DNA of 64,000 nt, taken from a virus. Its lineage: Duplodnaviria > Caudoviricetes. Location of the stretch: the IMG/VR virus record IMGVR_UViG_3300046694_000619; one strand, 5' to 3'. The notes under the pieces were generated by a model. It saw only the letters and a list, made by a program, of their open reading frames with translations. It was not told where the DNA came from and did no database searches. The translations under genes and the position numbers were made by a program. Of the stretch, positions 2,565 through 64,000 are shown one piece after another (positions within the stretch are counted from its first letter, which is position 1; every line of letters begins with the position of its first letter).

Positions 2565-2589
2565 CACAATGTGATTGTCAAGCTATACT
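2561..2589 (+). promoter_or_regulatory. Sigma70 promoter of the tmRNA gene
   Basis: TTGACA (2561-2566), 17-nt spacer, TATACT (2584-2589). Confidence 0.85.
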
Positions 2590-2590
2590 A

Positions 2591-2855
2591 GCATTCATCG
2601 TTGTAATTCCTCTGGAATTGAAATTCGGCGGAAAAGGGTTCGACTCCCTTCACCTCCACCAAATGCGCATTTGTCAAGTACGTATTTGATGGGGGTGCCC
2701 AGGTTTCGACGTCGTGCGGAGATGAAGGCGGCAACGCGGGCAGGCGACTTCCCGGTGAGCTTCGGCTTGCGAACAGAGCAAAATCGTTAAATGCAAACGA
2801 TGAATCGTACCTGATGGTCGCTTGACCGTCCGGGGCCGCGCCTGCCCTGTGAAAT
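2591..2855 (+). ncRNA. ssrA: Circularly permuted (two-piece) tmRNA
   Basis: T-arm and acceptor 3' half (GGGTTCGACTCCCTTCACCTCCACCA, ends 2661) lies upstream of the 5' half (GGGGGTG...TTCGAC, starts 2691). The 7-bp acceptor stem has G3-U70. Tag frame 2793-2825 encodes ANDESYLMVA*. Ends are approximate. Confidence 0.9.
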
Positions 2856-2864
2856 AAATGCGTG

Positions 2865-2899
2865 GAAACCCAGGCCTCGCGGTCTGGGTTTTTCTTTTT
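2865..2899 (+). terminator. Intrinsic terminator after tmRNA
   Basis: gaaacccaggcc-tcgc-ggtctgggtttt plus T tract. Confidence 0.8.
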
Positions 2900-2939
2900 G
2901 AGCTATACCATGTGTCCTAGCCCCGTTGCCCAAAAGACC

Positions 2940-58064: not shown

Positions 58065-59447
58065 ATGAACTCCTTGCTCATCCCAAATCCGAGCCAGCCC
58101 CACGATACTTACCGGATTCTGGTGGCAGACGATTCCCCGGTCCTCCGGGGCGTTTTCCGGTCCTTCAATACCGGTGAGGTGATTGTGCGCGACGTGGTTA
58201 CAGACCGCCCGGCCCTCATTCGAGCCTTGAAGGATGCGCACGACCTTGACGCCGTGCTGTGTTCCGACCATCTGGCCGGCCGCTACGGCGGCGTCCTCGC
58301 CCTCAATGAGCTTCGCGAGAGCAAGCTGCTGCCACACGAAACCGCCTTCATCATGATGAGCGGTGACGCACGCCGGTCCAACCTGATGGTGGACATCGAG
58401 GCGAAGCCCGACAGCATCCTGCTCAAGCCGTTTGCGCCCGCGACGCTTGTGCGCAAGCTGGCTCAAACGGTGCCGGTGCGTCGCGCGCTGGCCCATGTGC
58501 GCCGGCAGGCCGACGCTCAGAACTGGGGCGACGTCCTGCGCGTGACTAACCGGATGCTGGAGGAGGGCACGGACTTCCCGACGGCTGTGCTATCGCTCAA
58601 ACTGGAGGCGCTGAGCAAGCTCGGGCAGCACGATGTAGTCATGGCCCTGTACGAGACCATCCTGGAGAACTCGCCCAGGTCGGTCGCGCTCCTCGAGCCT
58701 ATCGCGCGCTATGCCTACGACCAAGGCCAGCTGGTGAACGCAGAGAAGACGCTTGTGCGCATGTTGGCGCTGCAGCCGGCAAACTGCTTCGCAGCGGACC
58801 TGCTCGCAGACATCAAGCTCGAGCGCGGCGACTCGGTCGGGGCGCAGCTCCAGCTGCATCAGGCACTGCGGCACTCGCCTAATAGTATTGGGCGCCACCG
58901 TGCGCTCGGTCACATTGCGCTGCTCAACAACGACCTGGTTACGGCACAGCGCGCATATGCGGCCGCGATGCGACTCAATGCGGAAACATTCGGGCTCAGC
59001 GAGGTCGACGTCGCGAACGTTGTACGTGCTCTGTTGCTTAACGGCGACAACCTGCACGCCAATCGAGCCATCCGCGACGCACGGCATGTATTGCGGGAAA
59101 ACCTGGTGCTCGACGTGCTTCAGCAGCTCACCGAGGCTATGCTGTATCGCGAGTTTGACTCCTTCGGCCGGACGCAGCAACGCGTACAGCAAGGCATCGC
59201 GCTCCTGGAGCGCACCATCCTGCCCGACAATGGCGTAATGCTTTTGGCAGCCACGGAAGCGAGCTTGATGGCGTCACTTGCACATCGCGGGTACCAGCTC
59301 AGTTCTGCGTTACTGAACAAGCGTTCGCATGTTAAGTTGCATCCTGCACAAAAAAGATGGGCCGAGAAGCTTCACAAGTGGTCCAGAGATGTGCACAATG
59401 AAGTTCTGCCGGAAGGCATGTTGCAGTATCAGCAGTACATGCAGTAA
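58065..59447 (+). CDS. Atypical receiver domain plus TPR protein
   Basis: ILVADDS...IMMSG...LLKPF, then TPR repeats. Confidence 0.75.
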   Translation: MNSLLIPNPSQPHDTYRILVADDSPVLRGVFRSFNTGEVIVRDVVTDRPALIRALKDAHDLDAVLCSDHLAGRYGGVLALNELRESKLLPHETAFIMMSGDARRSNLMVDIEAKPDSILLKPFAPATLVRKLAQTVPVRRALAHVRRQADAQNWGDVLRVTNRMLEEGTDFPTAVLSLKLEALSKLGQHDVVMALYETILENSPRSVALLEPIARYAYDQGQLVNAEKTLVRMLALQPANCFAADLLADIKLERGDSVGAQLQLHQALRHSPNSIGRHRALGHIALLNNDLVTAQRAYAAAMRLNAETFGLSEVDVANVVRALLLNGDNLHANRAIRDARHVLRENLVLDVLQQLTEAMLYREFDSFGRTQQRVQQGIALLERTILPDNGVMLLAATEASLMASLAHRGYQLSSALLNKRSHVKLHPAQKRWAEKLHKWSRDVHNEVLPEGMLQYQQYMQ

Positions 59448-59528
59448 GTAACTCATTGATTTTGTTGGTGAGTTAAGTGTTAACACTTAGACGCGCGAAA
59501 ATATTTTCAACTTTTTTGAATTTGAGTG

Positions 59529-59556
59529 TTGACATGCAGGTTGGTGGTGCTATACT
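59529..59556 (+). promoter_or_regulatory. Sigma70 promoter of the tRNA array
   Basis: TTGACA, 16-nt spacer, TATACT with TGn extended -10; AT-rich upstream. Confidence 0.85.
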
Positions 59557-59632
59557 AGCTCACATGGTCCTCATAACCGAGGACTGAAACCAGCAGTAAA
59601 CCCAATTTACGAACATTTACGGAATCGAAATC

Positions 59633-59809
59633 ATGACACGCAGCCTCCGCCCAATCAACGCCGCCTCCACGCTTAATGCGTGGAATGGCGTTGTGCGCGT
59701 CGGATTCTCGCCGTCGAAAGATTGCGGTTTTAGCGCACTGAGCCTGGGCTTGGGTTATCAACCCGAGCATATTCAGGAACAGGTGCATTCCGGGAGGAAG
59801 GGCAGATAA
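59633..59809 (+). CDS. Putative attenuator leader peptide (58 aa)
   Basis: MTRSLRPINAASTLNAWNGVVRVGFSPSKDCGFSALSLGLGYQPEHIQEQVHSGRKGR*; lies between promoter and terminator; modest GGA RBS. Confidence 0.6.
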   Translation: MTRSLRPINAASTLNAWNGVVRVGFSPSKDCGFSALSLGLGYQPEHIQEQVHSGRKGR

Positions 59810-59837
59810 TATCGCCTAGACCTCAAGGTTCAAGACA

Positions 59838-59878
59838 GAACCCCCGGAATGCGCAAGCACCCGGGGGTTTTTGTTTTT
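59838..59878 (+). terminator. Intrinsic terminator (attenuator) upstream of the tRNA array
   Basis: aacccccgg-aatgcgcaagcac-ccgggggtt followed by tttgttttt. Confidence 0.88.
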
Positions 59879-59890
59879 AACCACCAAACA

Positions 59891-60075
59891 ACGTGCCAAA
59901 CGGAACGAGACCGTGGCCAGCACGATACCGGCAAAGCCGGATGGCAAATGGGCGGGGTCCCGGATTGAAACTGCGGAGGAAACGCAGGAGTAAAATGGGC
60001 ATGCGGAGGGACGACCTCCGCACTTTTTCAAGGGTCTTGTCGACTTGTTAACCCGAGTAGGGTCCTTGAAAAAGC
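59891..60075 (+). ncRNA. Candidate structured RNA between the attenuator and the first tRNA
   Basis: Several nested hairpins, no convincing ORF. Confidence 0.5.
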
Positions 60076-60126
60076 GATGACGCAGTCGCTTGATTGCGAA
60101 ATTTACGTTTTCATGTGATACATGAC

Positions 60127-60202
60127 GCCGGTTTAGCTCAGATGGAAGAGCTACTGTTTTGTAAACAGAGGGTCACGGGTTCGAATCCTGTAGCCGGCAC
60201 CA
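60127..60202 (+). tRNA. tRNA-Thr(UGU)
   Basis: Cloverleaf, loop TTTGTAA, CCA. Confidence 0.9.
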
Positions 60203-60213
60203 CCCATCACGCT

Positions 60214-60290
60214 CGGGGCATAGCGCAGTCTGGTAGCGCGTCTGCATGGGGTGCAGAAGGCCGCAGGTTCGAATCCTGCTGTCCCGACCA
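60214..60290 (+). tRNA. tRNA-Pro(GGG)
   Basis: Loop ATGGGGT, CCA. Confidence 0.92.
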
Positions 60291-60300
60291 ACGGTTCAAT

Positions 60301-60376
60301 GCGGGTGTAGCTCAGATGGTAGAGCAGAAGCCTTCCAAGCTTAGTGTCGCGAGTTCGATTCTCGTCGCCCGCTCCA
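60301..60376 (+). tRNA. tRNA-Gly(UCC)
   Basis: Loop CTTCCAA, U73, CCA. Confidence 0.92.
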
Positions 60377-60507
60377 GTTCCTTGTTGTCGCAGTCATGCG
60401 TTAAATGGCGTCTGCCGGTTGTCCTCTCTCCGGCGCGGTCACTGCGATAAGTGACGTGCTGGCAGGCAAGCTGCAAGCCGTGCTGACGGGAATCAGCGCG
60501 CAACGCT

Positions 60508-60591
60508 GCCCAGGTGGTGAAATGGAAGACACGCTGGTTTCAGAAGCCAGTGGCGAAAGCTGTGAGGGTTCGAGTCCCTCCCTGGGCACCA
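60508..60591 (+). tRNA. tRNA-Leu(CAG)
   Basis: Loop TTCAGAA, variable arm, CCA. Confidence 0.9.
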
Positions 60592-60644
60592 TTAGTACAA
60601 CTTACATGTAGTAGGTCGCAATCACTGCATGTTTTCGCTTCAAC

Positions 60645-60730
60645 GGGGATGTGGCTGAGTGGCCGAAGGCGGCGGACTGTAAATCCGTTCTGTAAAAAGC
60701 GCGATGGTTCGAATCCATCCGTCCCCACCA
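60645..60730 (+). tRNA. tRNA-Tyr(GUA)
   Basis: Loop CTGTAAA, variable arm, CCA. Confidence 0.9.
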
Positions 60731-60745
60731 CGATTTTTTTGCAAT

Positions 60746-60822
60746 GCCTAGGTAGCTCAGCATGGTAGAGCGCCGTCTTGATAAGGCGAGGGTCGCTGGT
60801 TCAAATCCAGCTCTAGGTACCA
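60746..60822 (+). tRNA. tRNA-Ile(GAU)
   Basis: Loop TTGATAA, CCA. Confidence 0.9.
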
Positions 60823-60832
60823 GTTTCACAAT

Positions 60833-60909
60833 TGGCCAGTAGCTCAGTTCGGTAGAGCGCTCCGCTGTTAACGGAAGGGTCACGGGTTCGAAGCCTGTCT
60901 GGCCAGCCA
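60833..60909 (+). tRNA. tRNA-Asn(GUU)
   Basis: Loop CTGTTAA, G73, CCA. Confidence 0.9.
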
Positions 60910-60918
60910 ATTTACGAT

Positions 60919-61004
60919 GCACGTGTGGCCGAGCGGTTGAAGGCACTGGGCTGCAAACCCAGCGATGAAACTCCACGCCAGTTCGAATCTGGCCACGTGC
61001 TCCA
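60919..61004 (+). tRNA. tRNA-Cys(GCA) with long variable region
   Basis: Loop CTGCAAA, U73, CCA, 86 nt. Confidence 0.85.
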
Positions 61005-61031
61005 GTCGCTGTTGCTAGTTGTACGAATAAT

Positions 61032-61117
61032 GCACGCGTAGCCAAGAGGTCGAAGGCACAGGTCCGCAAAACCTACGACGCAAGTCCACGTCAGTTCGAA
61101 TCTGACCGCGTGCTCCA
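61032..61117 (+). tRNA. tRNA-Cys(GCA) with C33 and long variable arm
   Basis: Loop CCGCAAA, U73, CCA, 86 nt. Confidence 0.8.
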
Positions 61118-61140
61118 GTAGTTCCTGAAGTTTGCTTTGC

Positions 61141-61214
61141 TCCGGTGTAGCTCAGTTCGGTAGAGCGCCTGGCTGTTAACCAGGATGTCGGTGGTTCGAA
61201 CCCACTCTCCGGAG
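61141..61214 (+). tRNA. tRNA-Asn(GUU), no encoded CCA
   Basis: Loop CTGTTAA; followed by CAA. Confidence 0.85.
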
Positions 61215-61231
61215 CAAAGCAAAGTTTCAAT

Positions 61232-61308
61232 GCTCGGATAGCTCAGTTTGGTAGAGCGCCGGCCCGATAAGCCGTAGGTCGCTGGTTCAAATCCAGCTCC
61301 GAGTACCA
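61232..61308 (+). tRNA. tRNA-Ile(GAU) with C33
   Basis: Loop CCGATAA, CCA. Confidence 0.82.
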
Positions 61309-61316
61309 AGTTTTCT

Positions 61317-61392
61317 GCGGGAATAGCTCAGTTGGTAGAGCGCAACCTTGCCAAGGTTGAGGTCGCGAGTTCGAGACTCGTTTCCCGCTCCA
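61317..61392 (+). tRNA. tRNA-Gly(GCC)
   Basis: Canonical sequence, loop TTGCCAA. Confidence 0.95.
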
Positions 61393-61403
61393 GGTTTGCC
61401 CTT

Positions 61404-61480
61404 GCAGGGGTAGCTCAGTTGGCTAGAGCATCTGCTTGCCATGCAGAAGGTCGCGAGTTCGAGTCTCGTTCCCTGCTCCA
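61404..61480 (+). tRNA. tRNA-Gly(GCC), second variant
   Basis: Loop TTGCCAT, CCA. Confidence 0.9.
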
Positions 61481-61488
61481 GTTTCATC

Positions 61489-61586
61489 GCCGAGATAGTC
61501 CGGTCGGTGCCGGTACGAATCCATAAGAGTTGTCGCTTGGTGACCCAGGCGCAGCCCACGCAGTTCGACTCTGCGTCTCGGCTCCA
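61489..61586 (+). tRNA. Atypical tRNA-like RNA (anticodon undetermined)
   Basis: Perfect acceptor stem, T-arm and CCA; weak anticodon arm; ~11-bp extra arm. Confidence 0.65.
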
Positions 61587-61595
61587 GCTTCATTT

Positions 61596-61672
61596 GCGGT
61601 AGTAGCTCAGCTGGTTAGAGCGCCGGCCTGTCGAGCCGGGGGTCACGGGTTCGAGTCCCGTCTGCCGCGCCA
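61596..61672 (+). tRNA. tRNA-Asp(GUC) with G37
   Basis: Loop CTGTCGA, G73, CCA. Confidence 0.9.
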
Positions 61673-61684
61673 GTTTCACCCGAT

Positions 61685-61760
61685 GTTCCGTTGGACTTTT
61701 GGTAAGGTCAGCAGGCTTTCAACCTGCGCAAGCTCGGTTCGAATCCGGCACGGAACTCCA
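61685..61760 (+). tRNA. tRNA-Glu(UUC)
   Basis: Loop CTTTCAA, CCA. Confidence 0.82.
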
Positions 61761-61769
61761 GATTACATT

Positions 61770-61845
61770 GCTCCGTTAACTCAGCGGCCAGAGTGCGTCC
61801 CTGTCCAGGACGAAGCCGAGGGTTCGACTCCCTCACGGGGCGCCA
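61770..61845 (+). tRNA. tRNA-Asp(GUC) with C37
   Basis: Loop CTGTCCA, G73, CCA. Confidence 0.85.
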
Positions 61846-61855
61846 GTTTCACAGC

Positions 61856-61931
61856 AGGGGGTAAATCGATTGGAGCAGATACTTGGCTTTGACCCAAGGT
61901 GAGTCGGGTTCGATTCCCACACCCCCTTCCA
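61856..61931 (+). tRNA. tRNA-Gln(UUG), divergent
   Basis: Loop CTTTGAC, CCA. Confidence 0.75.
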
Positions 61932-61943
61932 AAAAATCACAAC

Positions 61944-62019
61944 GTGCGCTTCGTCTAGTGGCCCAGGACCCCGTCTAACAAGGCGGGAGACACAGGTTCG
62001 AATCCTGTAGCGCGCTCCA
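61944..62019 (+). tRNA. tRNA with Glu-type body and 6-nt anticodon loop (TAACAA; AAC/Val?)
   Basis: D-arm TCGTCTAGTGGCCCAGGAC; stem CCGTC/GGCGG; CCA. Confidence 0.7.
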
Positions 62020-62039
62020 GTAACAACAAAGCACATTGC

Positions 62040-62112
62040 ATGACTGTGGCGCAATTGGCAGCGCAGCGGTCTCCAAAACCGAAGGTTGAGAGTTCGACCC
62101 TCTCCAGTCATG
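62040..62112 (+). tRNA. tRNA-Trp(CCA), no encoded CCA end
   Basis: Loop CTCCAAA; followed by CAA. Confidence 0.85.
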
Positions 62113-62131
62113 CAATGTGTTTTCCCCCTGT

Positions 62132-62208
62132 CTGGGCGTAATGTCAGTTGGTAGACGGCCGGCTTTGGAAGCCGGAGGCCGCAGGTTCGAGTCCTGTCGC
62201 CCAGACCA
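62132..62208 (+). tRNA. tRNA-Pro(UGG) with A37
   Basis: Loop TTTGGAA, CCA. Confidence 0.85.
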
Positions 62209-62220
62209 AATTTTTTCAAC

Positions 62221-62297
62221 ACTCGGGTCGTCTAGCTGGCCTAGGACACCGCCCTTTCAAGGCGGGCACGCGGGTTCGAATCCCGTCCCGAGTACCA
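62221..62297 (+). tRNA. tRNA-Glu(UUC)
   Basis: Loop CTTTCAA, CCA. Confidence 0.9.
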
Positions 62298-62313
62298 AAT
62301 TTCGAGGACAGTC

Positions 62314-62859
62314 ATGTTGACGTGCGTGAATTATAGGCCCGGCTTCGTGGCCAATCCGAATCCGATTTTCGATGCGCTGTGGTCCGAGCTGGACTGGGAG
62401 CGCAGAGGCTCGACGCCCAGGCGTGAGTATTACTGCAACGACGTCGGCGTGCCGTATGTCTATGGCCGCGGCGCCGGCGTACGGGAATACCTGCCCAAGG
62501 CCATGCATCCCGCCCTGGCTGCCCTGAAAGGCGAGACGGAAGCCGCACTGAGCACCAAGTTCGAAGTGGCCTTTCTGAACGGCTACGAGGACGCCCGCGA
62601 CAGCTTGGGCTGGCACGCGGATGACAGCGAGTCGATGGATGACAATCGTCCCATCGCCATCCTGACGCTGGGCGCGGAACGCGAAATCTGGTTCTGCCGC
62701 AACACCGACCGCTCCGACATCACGAAGCTGGTGCTGGGCAACGGCAGCCTGTGCGTCATGGCGCCGGGCATGCAAGATACCCACCTGCACAGAATCCCCA
62801 AGGCGGGGTTCGAGTGCGGCCCGCGTATCAGTATTACATTCAGGGGTTACGTAGCGTAG
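62314..62859 (+). CDS. AlkB-family 2OG-Fe(II) dioxygenase (ALKBH2/3-like)
   Basis: LNGY...DSLGWHADD (HxD), H.IPK, RISITFR; GAGGA RBS. Confidence 0.9.
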   Translation: MLTCVNYRPGFVANPNPIFDALWSELDWERRGSTPRREYYCNDVGVPYVYGRGAGVREYLPKAMHPALAALKGETEAALSTKFEVAFLNGYEDARDSLGWHADDSESMDDNRPIAILTLGAEREIWFCRNTDRSDITKLVLGNGSLCVMAPGMQDTHLHRIPKAGFECGPRISITFRGYVA

Positions 62860-62980
62860 TCCTGAAGGGGTTGCTTCATGCTGCCCTGGCGCCAGGTGTA
62901 GACCATCTGGCGCCGTCTCTACAAGTTGTCGTAGTGCCTATTGCATGGTATATTAAACTCCCCATCATAAGGAGTTTCCC

Positions 62981-63169
62981 ATGAATTACTCGACGGCTCT
63001 GTCGTTTGCTGTTCCGGTCTTGATGCTCATTGCAACCGTGAATCTGGTTGCGTACTGGGCTCGTAACGCAAAGAAGGTAGCTGACGCCCGGCTGCGTGCG
63101 CATTACGATGCGCACCCCGATAAGGCTGAAGCTCGTGCGCTGATGCGCGCAGCAGGCTACAACGTCTGA
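62981..63169 (+). CDS. Small membrane protein
   Basis: TAAGGAG RBS, one TM helix. Confidence 0.6.
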   Translation: MNYSTALSFAVPVLMLIATVNLVAYWARNAKKVADARLRAHYDAHPDKAEARALMRAAGYNV

Positions 63170-63227
63170 GCGTAACGCCGGCGTTGTGCTCCGTCCCAGG
63201 TCGGCCAACACCTGGAAAGAACACCTT

Positions 63228-63303
63228 GGGGGTGTAACTCAGTCGGTAGAGTGCCTGACTCTTAATCAGGAAGTCGCGAGTTCGAGCCTCGCCGCCCCCA
63301 CCA
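63228..63303 (+). tRNA. tRNA-Lys(CUU)
   Basis: Loop CTCTTAA, CCA. Confidence 0.92.
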
Positions 63304-63311
63304 CGATTACT

Positions 63312-63402
63312 GGAGAGCAAACCTGGCAGGGCTGGGCGCCGATTCGAAATCGGTTGGAGTGGCGAAAGCTGCTTGGGCTTCGAGTGCACCTGCTCTCCGC
63401 CA
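63312..63402 (+). tRNA. tRNA-Ser(CGA) with 8/4 fold (allo-tRNA-like)
   Basis: 8-bp acceptor GGAGAGCA/TGCTCTCC, short T-stem, long variable arm, G73, loop TTCGAAA. Confidence 0.78.
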
Positions 63403-63408
63403 GACAAT

Positions 63409-63486
63409 AGGACCGTAGCTCAGTTGGACCAGAGCGCCGCGCTACGAACGCGGAGGTCGGGGATTCGAATTCCTCCGGTCCTACCA
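63409..63486 (+). tRNA. tRNA-Arg(ACG)
   Basis: Loop CTACGAA, CCA. Confidence 0.9.
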
Positions 63487-63497
63487 TTTCATTTCTT

Positions 63498-63573
63498 GCC
63501 TCGGTAGCTCAGCTGGTAGAGCACTGCACTGAAGATGCAGGTGTCGCTGGTTCGATTCCAGCTCGAGGCACCA
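63498..63573 (+). tRNA. tRNA-Phe(GAA) with G37
   Basis: Loop CTGAAGA, CCA. Confidence 0.9.
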
Positions 63574-63584
63574 CCTTCCGGAGC

Positions 63585-63917
63585 TTGTCTATGGTCGCGT
63601 ATCCCGTGAACTACACAGACGAGCAGCTTGGAAAAGCCTACGCGGCCGGGATGCTGCGAAAGACCAAGCTTGAGGATGGCCGCTATTACAGAGGCGAATG
63701 TCGAAACGCGAGCGTCGCGCGCTGGTGCGCCGAACTGCAAGCATTCGTGCACTGGACCTTCACGATGGGCGGCTGGCATCTGGACCTCATCCATCATCCC
63801 GACGACGAGAAACGGTATGACGTGTTTCTCGCGTTCGAACGCGTTGAACCTTCCGCAGACGACGTCATCGCTGACGCCGAATACGAAGGGTTCGTCGCGA
63901 TGTATCGCAAACAATGA
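63585..63917 (+). CDS. Hypothetical protein inside the tRNA array
   Basis: 110-aa ORF filling the inter-tRNA gap; YY.G.CRNA..ARW. Confidence 0.6.
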   Translation: MSMVAYPVNYTDEQLGKAYAAGMLRKTKLEDGRYYRGECRNASVARWCAELQAFVHWTFTMGGWHLDLIHHPDDEKRYDVFLAFERVEPSADDVIADAEYEGFVAMYRKQ

Positions 63918-63928
63918 GACTGCAGCGG

Positions 63929-64000
63929 GGTGGCCGTCGCCAAGTGGTTAAGGCCCGCGGCTGTGACCCGCGCATGCATGGGTTCAAATCCCATCGGTCA
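63929..64000 (+). tRNA. tRNA-His(GUG), truncated by the window end
   Basis: Loop CTGTGAC, G-1. Confidence 0.85.

What the first reader, a model, noticed from the sequence alone, without database searches (positions are those of the whole stretch)
59529..59878. Pan-codon leader-peptide attenuator gating a tRNA array (candidate new regulatory system)
Seen in sequence: a sigma70 promoter (59529-59556), a 58-codon ORF below the ORF-track cut-off (59633-59809), a strong intrinsic terminator (59838-59878), then the tRNA array. Codons 51-55 of the ORF (GTGCATTCCGGGAGG, 59783-59797) are complementary to the terminator's 5' arm (CCCCCGGAATGCGC, 59841-59854), giving about 14 bp with one G-U pair and one bulge. 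This is a mutually exclusive antiterminator. By hand count the ORF uses 43 different sense codons in 58, including AT-ending codons rare in this GC-rich window. All 20 amino acids have appeared by codon 46, just before a ribosome footprint would reach the antiterminator strand. Every assignable array tRNA has a cognate codon in the leader. Established: trp/his/thr-type attenuators use this ribosome-position logic but with runs of one or two amino acids. Inference: complete translation masks the antiterminator and keeps the array off. A stall at any codon (tRNA cleavage, starvation, ribosome drugs) frees it and turns on a back-up tRNA set. I know of no described example of this arrangement, but I could not search for one.
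Basis: partly seen in the sequence, partly recalled or inferred. Interest (0 to 1): 0.95.

Follow-up and report, generated by a model that had tools for sequence, protein, structure and literature searches.

The report
All-amino-acid leader attenuator before tRNA array
A strong promoter, a short translated reading frame that always contains all 20 amino acids, and a terminator that can be switched off by an alternative RNA helix sit in front of a mobile tRNA gene array of Burkholderia-type giant replicons. They look like a sensor that switches on spare tRNAs when protein synthesis falters.

Summary
The promoter, the 58-codon ORF, the terminator and the 14-bp antiterminator complementarity are all there.

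The same module occurs in at least 16 copies from about 12 lineages: rhizosphere and soil metagenomes, Burkholderia ubonensis and B. vietnamiensis. It always lies between a TraG-type gene and a tRNA array that starts with tRNA-Thr.

What holds up:
- The ORF frame is kept, although the peptide sequence is only weakly constrained.
- The antiterminator strand is conserved at the RNA level, even where the reading frame differs.
- The terminator and antiterminator states are nearly equal in energy.
- Masking by a modelled ribosome flips the fold to the terminator only from about codon 46 onward.

The "pan-codon" claim fails: homologues have 32-43 distinct codons, which is the random expectation. 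The "all 20 amino acids" claim holds well. All 26 distinct peptides (56-62 aa) carry all 20, and always before the antiterminator strand. A tree-aware neutral simulation gives P about 0.0003-0.005 for that part and 0.007-0.03 for the whole ORF.

My verdict is a probable ribosome-mediated attenuator of a new, 20-valent type. The regulation itself is untested. The scan has flagged this stretch only on this same genome, not on other DNA.

The parts
59474..59489 (.). 16-bp perfect palindrome TAAGTGTT/AACACTTA upstream of the promoter. Its half-site recurs over the -35 hexamer (59522-59534). Possible operator; function unknown.
   Evidence: Partly conserved in alignment A1.
59529..59556 (+). Sigma-70-type promoter TTGACA-16 nt-(TG)TATACT. 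The inferred transcription start is near 59563.
   Evidence: 11 of 12 positions. TTGACAT...GGTGCTATACT is invariant in nine loci. A close variant of it stands upstream in L025, L026, L028 and L029.
59566..59585 (+). 5' stem-loop at the start of the transcript.
   Evidence: Minimum-free-energy fold.
59619..59714 (+). Long-range helix that pairs the GGAAUC ribosome-binding motif and the AUG (59619-59642) with codons 21-27 (59694-59714). It would close the start site after the first part of the ORF is transcribed.
   Evidence: One pair covaries A-U to C-G in 3 of 10 modules.
59633..59809 (+). Leader ORF of 58 codons. All 20 amino acids are present by codon 46.
   Evidence: The frame is open in all 16 modules, while the other two frames carry 1-4 stops each in the ten modules tested. 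Indels are in frame. 26 of 26 peptides have all 20 amino acids.
59666..59684 (+). Hairpin inside the ORF (codons 12-17) with compensatory changes.
   Evidence: C-G to A-U in 4 of 10 modules; 5 of 16.
59733..59786 (+). Hairpin domain H2. Its outer four pairs (59733-59736 with 59783-59786) use the first four bases of the antiterminator strand, so they act as a weak anti-antiterminator.
59783..59797 (+). Region 2, the antiterminator strand (codons 51-55).
   Evidence: It is conserved as RNA even where the frame is shifted (L021) or the C-terminus differs (L023, L025).
59790..59828 (+). Hairpin H3 with the stop codon (59807-59809) in its loop. It forms in the terminator state.
   Evidence: two pairs covary.
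59841..59878 (+). Intrinsic terminator T1: stem 59841-59847 with 59861-59867, then the U tract 59868-59878. Positions 59841-59854 are the strand shared with the antiterminator.
   Evidence: The stem covaries C-G to U-A in L025.
59889..60001 (+). Domain X, a highly conserved structured RNA of unknown family.
   Evidence: long invariant blocks in 11 loci. No Rfam match at E up to 10.
60002..60030 (+). Second terminator-like hairpin T2, followed by CUUUUUC.
   Evidence: The hairpin covaries A-U to G-C in L019, L027 and L029.
60127..64000 (+). tRNA array (26 genes within the window), starting with tRNA-Thr(UGU).
   Evidence: The order Thr-Pro-Gly-Leu is the same in most relatives, with variants in L023/L024 and L025.

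Best explanation
This is a ribosome-mediated transcription attenuator. A constitutive-looking strong promoter starts a transcript about 70 nt before a 56-62-codon leader ORF.

The last codons of the ORF (51-55 here) form an RNA strand that can pair with the 5' arm and loop of the intrinsic terminator T1, which excludes the terminator hairpin. In RNA that carries no ribosome on that strand, the antiterminator forms first and RNA polymerase reads on. This includes RNA whose lead ribosome is held up anywhere in the first roughly 46 codons.

If the lead ribosome has reached codons 46-58 when the terminator is transcribed, the strand is covered, the terminator forms and transcription stops. Because the part of the ORF ahead of that strand contains every one of the 20 amino acids, shortage of any charged tRNA, or any general slowing of ribosomes, would raise read-through.

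Read-through transcripts then meet a second conserved RNA domain (X) with its own terminator-like hairpin (T2) before the tRNA array.

Shown: the sequence features, their conservation, the energetics and the amino-acid completeness. Inferred: that the ORF is translated, that ribosome position decides the fold, the direction of the switch, and that the array has no other promoter.
For: 1. Architecture and conservation. The promoter, ORF start, stop position and T1 are conserved in 16 modules from metagenomes and Burkholderia assemblies. All lie between a TraG-type gene and a tRNA array.

2. Translation.
- Frame 0 has no internal stop in any of the ten modules tested, whereas frames 1 and 2 have 1-4 stops each. 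The six added modules are open as well.
- Indels inside the ORF are +3, +6, +3 and -3. The single -1 (L021) still leaves the frame open across region 2. Indels outside the ORF are mostly 1 or 2 nt.
- The GGAAUC motif before the AUG also precedes other genes of the element.
- Constraint on the peptide is weak: dN/dS is 0.43-0.9, variable columns by codon position are 22/32/41, and AlphaFold gives no fold at pLDDT 57. This is what one expects of a leader peptide.

3. The switch.
- The region 2 to T1-arm duplex is -27.3 kcal/mol (P about 0.002).
- 93.7% of cells are paired across 16 modules, against 21-55% when the register is slid.
- The best upstream partner of the T1 arm ends at codons 54-56 in the modules whose terminator the script parsed correctly.
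- The nascent RNA up to 59856 gains 16.5 kcal/mol from the antiterminator.
- At 59868 the terminator state is -124.6 and the antiterminator state -122.0 kcal/mol.

4. Ribosome masking. A P site at codon 20 or 40 gives the antiterminator. A P site at codon 52 or a ribosome at the stop gives the terminator. In 11 of 13 modules every P-site position from about codon 46-48 to the end gives the terminator, apart from single antiterminator calls in the last two positions of L019b and L026.

5. Amino-acid completeness.
- 26 of 26 distinct peptides contain all 20 amino acids, complete 3-14 codons before region 2.
- Only 2.5% of 58-residue windows of the window's long ORFs, and about 4% of shuffles, do so.
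- C, H, I, K and T change position between lineages but are never lost.
- The tree-aware neutral simulation gives P = 0.007 for the whole ORF and 0.0003-0.0004 for the part before region 2. It gives 0.03 and 0.005 at 0.6 times the rate. The simulation made fewer changes than were observed, so it errs towards keeping the set complete.

6. Modularity. L019, L027/L028 and L029 carry two ORF-plus-terminator modules in series behind one promoter. This fits a cis-regulatory unit.

7. No other promoter. No promoter-like site lies between 59557 and 62925 on the + strand. In L004 and L012 the first tRNA abuts its upstream sequence, leaving no room for a -10 box.

8. Precedent. The Anabaena long tRNA array is silent and is induced by translational stress (PMC8421152, PMC10272220). 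The 53-codon bmrB leader ORF gates bmrCD by the same kind of switch (PMC4191407).

9. RNA libraries. A 205-nt metatranscriptome contig spans 59840-60044, across the T1 release point. A 151-nt contig, 148 nt of it matching, covers 59589-59736. This is weak, because DNA can be present in such libraries.
Against: - There is no direct evidence of translation, termination or read-through.
- The antiterminator helix is supported by conservation, not covariation. Only one pair changes on both sides, and the shuffle control is not exceeded (161 of 500).
- The Shine-Dalgarno match is weak, and in the full-length fold the start codon is sequestered.
- A ribosome sitting at the stop codon leaves 59783-59791 free, so masking is only partial at that position.
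- The masking maps rest on equilibrium MFE of two near-isoenergetic states. They are noisy for upstream positions in several modules. The upstream modules of two tandems (L028a, L029a) never leave the terminator state, and their antiterminator duplex is not significant.
- There is no run of regulatory codons and no strong anti-antiterminator, so this is not a classical trp- or his-type leader.
- Domain X and T2 show that T1 is not the only barrier.
- The tree used in the simulation is built from a 58-residue alignment and is uncertain.
Confidence: 0.55

Rival explanations
1. This is a ribosome-dependent attenuator with the opposite polarity. Efficient translation through region 2 melts the local hairpins H2 and H3 and releases region 2 just as the terminator arm emerges, which promotes read-through. 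Untranslated or stalled transcripts keep region 2 sequestered and terminate. The array would then be coupled to active translation rather than to translation failure.
For: In the full-length equilibrium fold without a ribosome, region 2 is partly held in H2 and H3 and the terminator is the MFE. A ribosome at the stop codon leaves 9 nt of region 2 free, and the nascent fold then shows a 9-bp partial antiterminator.
Against: With region 3 present but the 3' arm not yet made, the antiterminator is favoured by 16.5 kcal/mol even without a ribosome. Masks at codons 20 or 40 keep it, and masks at codon 52 or at the stop give the terminator once the 3' arm is available. A requirement for all 20 amino acids is harder to explain under this polarity. 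The Anabaena array is induced by translational stress, not repressed by it.
Confidence: 0.12
2. The ORF is an ordinary small-protein gene with its own promoter and terminator, and the peptide acts in trans. The tRNA array is expressed by leaky read-through or from an unrecognised promoter. The complementarity to the terminator is incidental.
For: The family has about 20 invariant or nearly invariant residues (NAW, D-GF, GYQPE) and a conserved length. Gene callers predict it in most contigs.
Against: - dN/dS is 0.43-0.9, and second codon positions vary more than first positions.
- Several conserved residues coincide with RNA helices that covary through non-synonymous changes.
- Region 2 is conserved in a different reading frame in L021.
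- There is no predicted fold and no Pfam family.
- The second module of each tandem has no promoter of its own.
- A folded protein has no reason to keep all 20 residue types.
Confidence: 0.12
3. The leader is a non-coding structured RNA: either a stable small RNA ending at T1, or a switch set by a protein, a tRNA or a small ligand. The open frame would be a by-product of its composition.
For: The fold is very stable (z = -7.0 against shuffles). Several helices covary. Codon use is unbiased. Downstream domain X looks like a ligand- or RNA-binding domain with T2 as its expression platform.
Against: Frame 0 alone is free of stops in all modules, and indels keep the frame. The stop codon position relative to T1 is conserved at 21-32 nt. 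All-20-amino-acid completeness is meaningless for a non-coding RNA, yet it is retained. There is no Rfam match.
Confidence: 0.1

Closest known systems
bmrB leader ORF controlling bmrCD in Bacillus subtilis (ribosome-mediated transcription attenuation; PMC4191407)
   Same: Both have a long leader ORF (53 codons against 56-62) and alternative terminator and antiterminator helices at the 3' end of the ORF. The signal proposed here is general slowing of translation rather than one amino acid, and codon composition of bmrB affects the decision.
   Different: In bmrB the terminator lies inside the ORF; here it lies 21-32 nt after the stop. The bmrB target is a drug exporter; here it is a tRNA array. 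No amino-acid completeness is reported for bmrB. There is no sequence similarity. The bmrB system is experimentally shown, and this one is not.
Amino-acid operon attenuators (trp, his, thr, leu, and the multivalent ilvGMEDA leader); established knowledge plus PMC1183508
   Same: Both have a promoter-proximal leader peptide, mutually exclusive helices and an intrinsic terminator, and the position of the lead ribosome selects the fold. The ilv leader already senses three amino acids.
   Different: There are no runs of regulatory codons; instead every amino acid is represented once or a few times over about 46 codons. The anti-antiterminator overlap is only 4 bp. The downstream genes are tRNAs, not biosynthetic enzymes. 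The weak Rfam His_leader hit (17 bits against a gathering score of 49, E = 4.4) is not a match.
Anabaena sp. PCC 7120 trn operon (long tRNA array on a megaplasmid, induced by translational stress; PMC8421152, PMC10272220)
   Same: Both are large accessory tRNA arrays on a big extrachromosomal replicon. In Anabaena the array is silent by default and is switched on when translation is impaired, which is the physiology inferred here.
   Different: Control in Anabaena is by a repressor (TrcR) binding direct repeats over the -10 box. Neither paper mentions a leader, attenuator or terminator. No such repeats lie at this promoter.
toiL uORF upstream of topAI-yjhQ in E. coli (PMC12121999)
   Same: A short upstream ORF acts as a general sensor of ribosome stalling caused by several classes of inhibitors (abstract).
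   Different: I took this from the abstract only. It is a different organism, target and sequence, and no amino-acid completeness or tRNA genes are involved.

Membership tests
Ribosome-mediated transcription attenuators (leader-peptide class) | Short ORF with start codon and ribosome-binding site close to the transcription start, upstream of the regulated genes | tested here: met
   The ORF is at 59633-59809, about 70 nt after the inferred start. The ATG is invariant in 16 modules. A GGAAUC motif like that of other genes of the element precedes it.
Ribosome-mediated transcription attenuators (leader-peptide class) | Intrinsic terminator between the leader ORF and the structural genes | tested here: met
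   T1 at 59841-59878 is a G+C-rich stem followed by a U tract, and it is conserved in all modules.
Ribosome-mediated transcription attenuators (leader-peptide class) | Antiterminator helix mutually exclusive with the terminator, one strand of which lies where a translating ribosome can cover it | tested here: met
   59783-59797 (codons 51-55) pairs with 59841-59854 at -27.3 kcal/mol, P about 0.002. 93.7% of cells are paired across 16 modules. Covariation is uninformative because both strands barely vary.
Ribosome-mediated transcription attenuators (leader-peptide class) | Regulatory codons, as runs or clusters for the amino acid that is sensed | tested here: not met
   There are no runs. Every amino acid is present, mostly 1-3 times. 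This is the main departure from the classical type.
Ribosome-mediated transcription attenuators (leader-peptide class) | Read-through depends on translation of the leader | not testable with these tools
   This needs reporter fusions, Term-seq or coupled in vitro transcription-translation.
Rfam leader, riboswitch or T-box families | Match to a curated covariance model at its gathering score | tested here: not met
   Within 59300-60200 only the tRNA passes its threshold. The best leader hit is His_leader at 17.1 bits against 49.
TrcR-type repressor control of long tRNA arrays (Anabaena) | [quoted passage not shown] | tested here: not met
   The published motif, allowing 2 mismatches, has no hit near 59529-59570. 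A different palindrome and half-site are present.
Small functional protein family | Purifying selection on the residues and a predicted fold or a known domain | tested here: not met
   dN/dS is 0.43-0.9, pLDDT is 57 with no secondary structure, and there is no Pfam hit on record.

The most novel reading that the evidence does not exclude
This is a 20-valent leader-peptide attenuator: a general sensor of the cell's capacity to decode every amino acid. It is carried by giant Burkholderia-associated mobile replicons. It releases a horizontally transferred back-up tRNA set whenever any charged tRNA becomes limiting, for example through starvation, anticodon nucleases or ribosome inhibitors. It works in series with a second, unclassified riboswitch-like RNA (domain X with T2), and in some elements as two attenuators in tandem.
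Probability: 0.4. Interest if true: 0.9.

Novelty: new variant of a known kind. Interest (0 to 1): 0.8.

Why it matters
Leader-peptide attenuation is a textbook mechanism, but known leaders sense one to three amino acids, or drugs acting on the ribosome. A leader kept complete for all 20 amino acids would be a designed read-out of global decoding capacity.

It would also give the first cis-acting mechanism for switching on an accessory tRNA array. The function and regulation of such arrays in plasmids, phages and conjugative elements are still debated, with anti-defence and survival of translational stress as the leading ideas. The only worked-out case, Anabaena, uses a repressor.

The prediction is simple to test. 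Recoding the only Cys, Trp or Tyr codon of the leader should abolish the response to that one starvation. The module is small and portable, so it could serve as a reporter of translation stress.

Tried and rejected
- Pan-codon design: rejected. Distinct codons in homologues number 32-43, equal to the shuffle expectation.
- Species-representative genomes: two scans found nothing.
- PLSDB plasmids and the phage collection: no relative by DNA or by the neighbouring protein.
- The whole genome of the window is not held.
- Metagenome pattern scan: two of the four hits (L013, L016) were chance 22-nt matches inside unrelated coding sequence. L014 is cut inside the leader.
- Rfam: no family for the leader or for domain X.
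- Mini-ORF with an AGGAG motif at about 59985-60041: rejected, because both ATGs are lost in L012 and other loci.
- A promoter just before tRNA-Thr (TTGCGN-16 nt-TGATAY): rejected, because in L004 and L012 it abuts the tRNA 5' end. The scan finds none.
- Covariation test of the antiterminator: uninformative, because both strands are nearly invariant.
- TrcR-type repeats: absent from the promoter.
- Automatic terminator parsing failed for four modules (window, L001, L004, L027b). Their figures from that call are not used.
- RNA libraries: only two short contigs matched. Uncovered parts and depth cannot be interpreted, and DNA carry-over cannot be excluded.
- AlphaFold of the peptide gave no confident fold. 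This is weak negative evidence only.
- P0036 from the profile search is a spurious repeat protein.
Full report
**1. The observation.**
- The promoter at 59529-59556 is TTGACA-16 nt-TATACT with an upstream TG. It matches 11 of 12 positions and is the best site in 59000-64000.
- The ORF at 59633-59809 has 58 codons.
- The terminator T1 has a seven-pair G+C stem (59841-59847 with 59861-59867), three inner pairs closing a GCAA loop, and TTTTTGTTTTT. The hairpin is -20.1 kcal/mol.
- Codons 51-55 (59783-59797) are complementary to 59841-59854. The duplex is -27.3 kcal/mol, against -17.7 +/- 2.6 for dinucleotide shuffles of the ORF (P = 0.0025) and P = 0.0016 against natural chunks of the window.
- The ORF has 43 distinct codons, and all 20 amino acids are present by codon 46.
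- ARAGORN finds 26 tRNA genes from 60127 onward.

**2. Context.** The window belongs to a very large replicon. It encodes DnaE, an ImuB-like protein, LigD, GyrA, GyrB, many Ig-domain proteins, a TraG/VirD4-type coupling protein and a tmRNA. Relatives lie on contigs of 0.35-0.64 Mb from rhizosphere and soil metagenomes and from B. ubonensis and B. vietnamiensis assemblies. A B. multivorans protein record belongs to the same leader-peptide family. No finished plasmid or phage in the local collections carries the system.

**3. Homologues.** The 58-aa product and the neighbouring response-regulator/TPR protein led to loci with the same layout. The order is TraG-type gene, usually the response-regulator gene, about 180 nt of spacer with the same promoter, the leader ORF, T1, and then a tRNA array starting with tRNA-Thr. 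In all, 16 modules were aligned (A4, A7) and 26 distinct peptides were collected. Three elements (L019, L027/L028, L029) have two ORF-plus-terminator modules in series behind a single promoter.

**4. Is the ORF translated?** The evidence is indirect but consistent.
- Frame 0 has no internal stop in any of the ten modules tested, while the other two frames have 1-4 stops each. The six further modules are open too.
- Indels inside the ORF are +3, +6, +3 and -3. The single -1 (L021) lies near the end and leaves an open frame across region 2. Outside the ORF, indels are mostly 1-2 nt.
- The ATG and the stop position are conserved, with 21-32 nt between the stop and the terminator stem.
- The weak GGAAUC motif ahead of the ATG also precedes other genes of the element, which generally lack strong Shine-Dalgarno sequences.

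The residues themselves are weakly constrained. dN/dS is 0.43-0.9, second codon positions vary more than first positions, and AlphaFold finds no fold at pLDDT 57. Translation seems to matter more than the product.

**5. RNA structure.** The leader folds far better than shuffles (z = -7.0), and several helices covary:
- a hairpin in codons 12-17 (C-G to A-U in four to five modules);
- the helix that pairs the ribosome-binding motif and AUG with codons 21-27;
- hairpins H2 and H3.

Some compensatory changes are non-synonymous, so RNA pairing outranks the residue. Region 2 is conserved as RNA even when it is read in another frame (L021) or encodes a different C-terminus (L023, L025).

Its pairing with the terminator arm is kept in 93.7% of cells across 16 modules, against 21-55% in slid registers. 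Both strands barely vary, so covariation cannot confirm it. The few changes fit the pairing: U-G to C-G in four modules, U-G to U-A in one, and G-C to A-U in L025.

**6. Energetics of the switch.**
- Before the 3' arm of T1 is made (RNA up to 59856), the antiterminator lowers the energy by 16.5 kcal/mol.
- Once the stem is complete (59868), the terminator state is -124.6 and the antiterminator state -122.0 kcal/mol.
- Masking 28 nt around a P site at codon 20 or 40 leaves the antiterminator as the MFE. Masking at codon 52 or at the stop codon gives the terminator.
- Scanning all P-site positions in 13 modules gives the terminator from about codon 46-48 to the end in 11 of them, apart from single antiterminator calls in the last two positions of L019b and L026. 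Upstream positions give the antiterminator almost throughout in L019b, L023, L025 and L027b, and patchily in the others.
- The upstream modules of two tandems stay in the terminator state.

These are equilibrium predictions for two close states, not kinetics.

**7. Pan-codon or pan-amino-acid?** Codon diversity is extreme only against the biased host genes (mean 31.3 +/- 3.2, 0 of 20000 reach 43). Against shuffles of the ORF it is P about 0.02. Homologues have 32-43 distinct codons, centred on the expectation. I reject pan-codon design.

Amino-acid completeness is different.
- All 26 distinct peptides of 56-62 residues contain all 20 amino acids.
- In all 26 the set is complete 3-14 codons before region 2.
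- Such completeness occurs in 2.5% of 58-residue windows of the window's long ORFs and in about 4% of shuffles.
- In the ten-module alignment A5, invariant columns hold 15 of the amino acids. C, H, I, K and T sit at shifting positions but are never lost.
- Column shuffles give 61% complete sequences for the whole ORF and 46% for the part before region 2. They never reach all sequences.
- A simulation along the family tree used column-specific residue pools and parsimony-calibrated rates, and started from a complete root. It keeps all tips complete with P = 0.007 (whole ORF) and 0.0003-0.0004 (before region 2). At 0.6 times the rate the values are 0.03 and 0.005.
- The simulation produced fewer changes than the parsimony minimum observed, so it is lenient.

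**8. What lies between T1 and the array.** The 250 nt after T1 are more conserved than the ORF. Domain X (about 59889-60001) has long invariant blocks in 11 loci, including the most distant one. It is followed by hairpin T2 (60002-60022), which covaries A-U to G-C, and by a short U run. Rfam has no match. This looks like a second, independent gate with the anatomy of a riboswitch. An AGGAG-ATG mini-ORF there is not conserved.

No sigma-70-like site lies between 59557 and the array. In two clades the first tRNA leaves no room for a -10 box. The array is therefore most simply transcribed from the leader promoter through both barriers.

**9. Expression data.** Two metatranscriptome contigs match. 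One of 205 nt spans 59840-60044, across the T1 release point. One of 151 nt, 148 nt of it matching, covers 59589-59736. They show presence in RNA libraries only.

**10. Comparison with the literature.**
- Leader-peptide attenuation is long known, and the ilv leader senses three amino acids.
- The bmrB leader ORF of 53 codons responds to ribosome inhibitors (PMC4191407).
- The Anabaena long tRNA array is induced by translational stress, but through a repressor. Neither paper mentions a leader or terminator (PMC8421152, PMC10272220).
- A uORF that senses several antibiotic classes is described in E. coli (PMC12121999).
- Full-text searches found no paper joining a tRNA array to a leader peptide or attenuator, and none describing an all-amino-acid leader.

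The library is incomplete, so absence there is not proof.

**11. Verdict.** The most likely reading (about 0.55) is a ribosome-mediated attenuator whose leader is kept complete for all 20 amino acids, so that any decoding failure raises read-through towards the tRNA array. Rivals are the same device with reversed polarity, a trans-acting small protein, and a non-coding switch with an incidental frame. It is a new variant of a known kind of regulator, on a new kind of target, and it is readily testable.

Noticed in passing
window 59889-60030: Domain X is a structured RNA of about 110 nt, almost invariant across 11 loci whose leader ORFs have diverged to about 55% identity. It is followed by a covarying hairpin and a U run (T2). 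It has riboswitch-like anatomy and no Rfam match. It may be the more unusual element of the two.
   Followed up: partly
L019:4559-5090, L028:2224-2760, L029:1609-2140: Two complete leader-ORF-plus-terminator modules stand in tandem behind one promoter. The upstream module ends ...HSEGW(D/E)(G/V) and has a weaker antiterminator. The downstream module ends ...HSGR(K/T)GR. Each peptive contains all 20 amino acids.
   Followed up: partly
window 59474-59489 and 59522-59534: A 16-bp perfect palindrome lies 40 nt upstream of the -35 hexamer, and its half-site is repeated over the -35. This may be an operator for a DNA-binding regulator, so promoter-level control may exist as well.
   Followed up: no
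window 58065-59447: A 460-aa protein with a receiver domain and TPR repeats is syntenic with the leader in most loci, but it is absent in L025 and replaced by a 153-aa gene in L026. A role in controlling the array is possible.
   Followed up: no
window 61944-62019; also L001:7168-7244 and L012:7350-7425: ARAGORN reports a tRNA with a four-base anticodon (aaca) and no assignable amino acid. It is conserved at the same place in the array in relatives. A 98-nt 'tRNA-Tyr(ata)' at 61489-61586 is also odd.
   Followed up: no
window 62314-62859: A 2OG-Fe(II) oxygenase (AlkB-like, PF13532) gene is embedded in the tRNA array and is conserved in relatives (L001, L002, L012, L019). It may repair or modify RNA.
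   Followed up: no
L017:5040-5177, L021:4990-5127, L027:2970-3107 (approximate): A further conserved insert of about 130 nt lies between T2 and tRNA-Thr in three loci. It is absent from the window.
   Followed up: no
window 2569-2916: A tmRNA gene, which ARAGORN marks with an asterisk (tmRNA*), has the tag ANDESYLMVA. It sits on the same element as the tRNA array, beside replication genes (DnaE, GyrA/B, LigD). The replicon carries much of its own translation-rescue and replication equipment.
   Followed up: no
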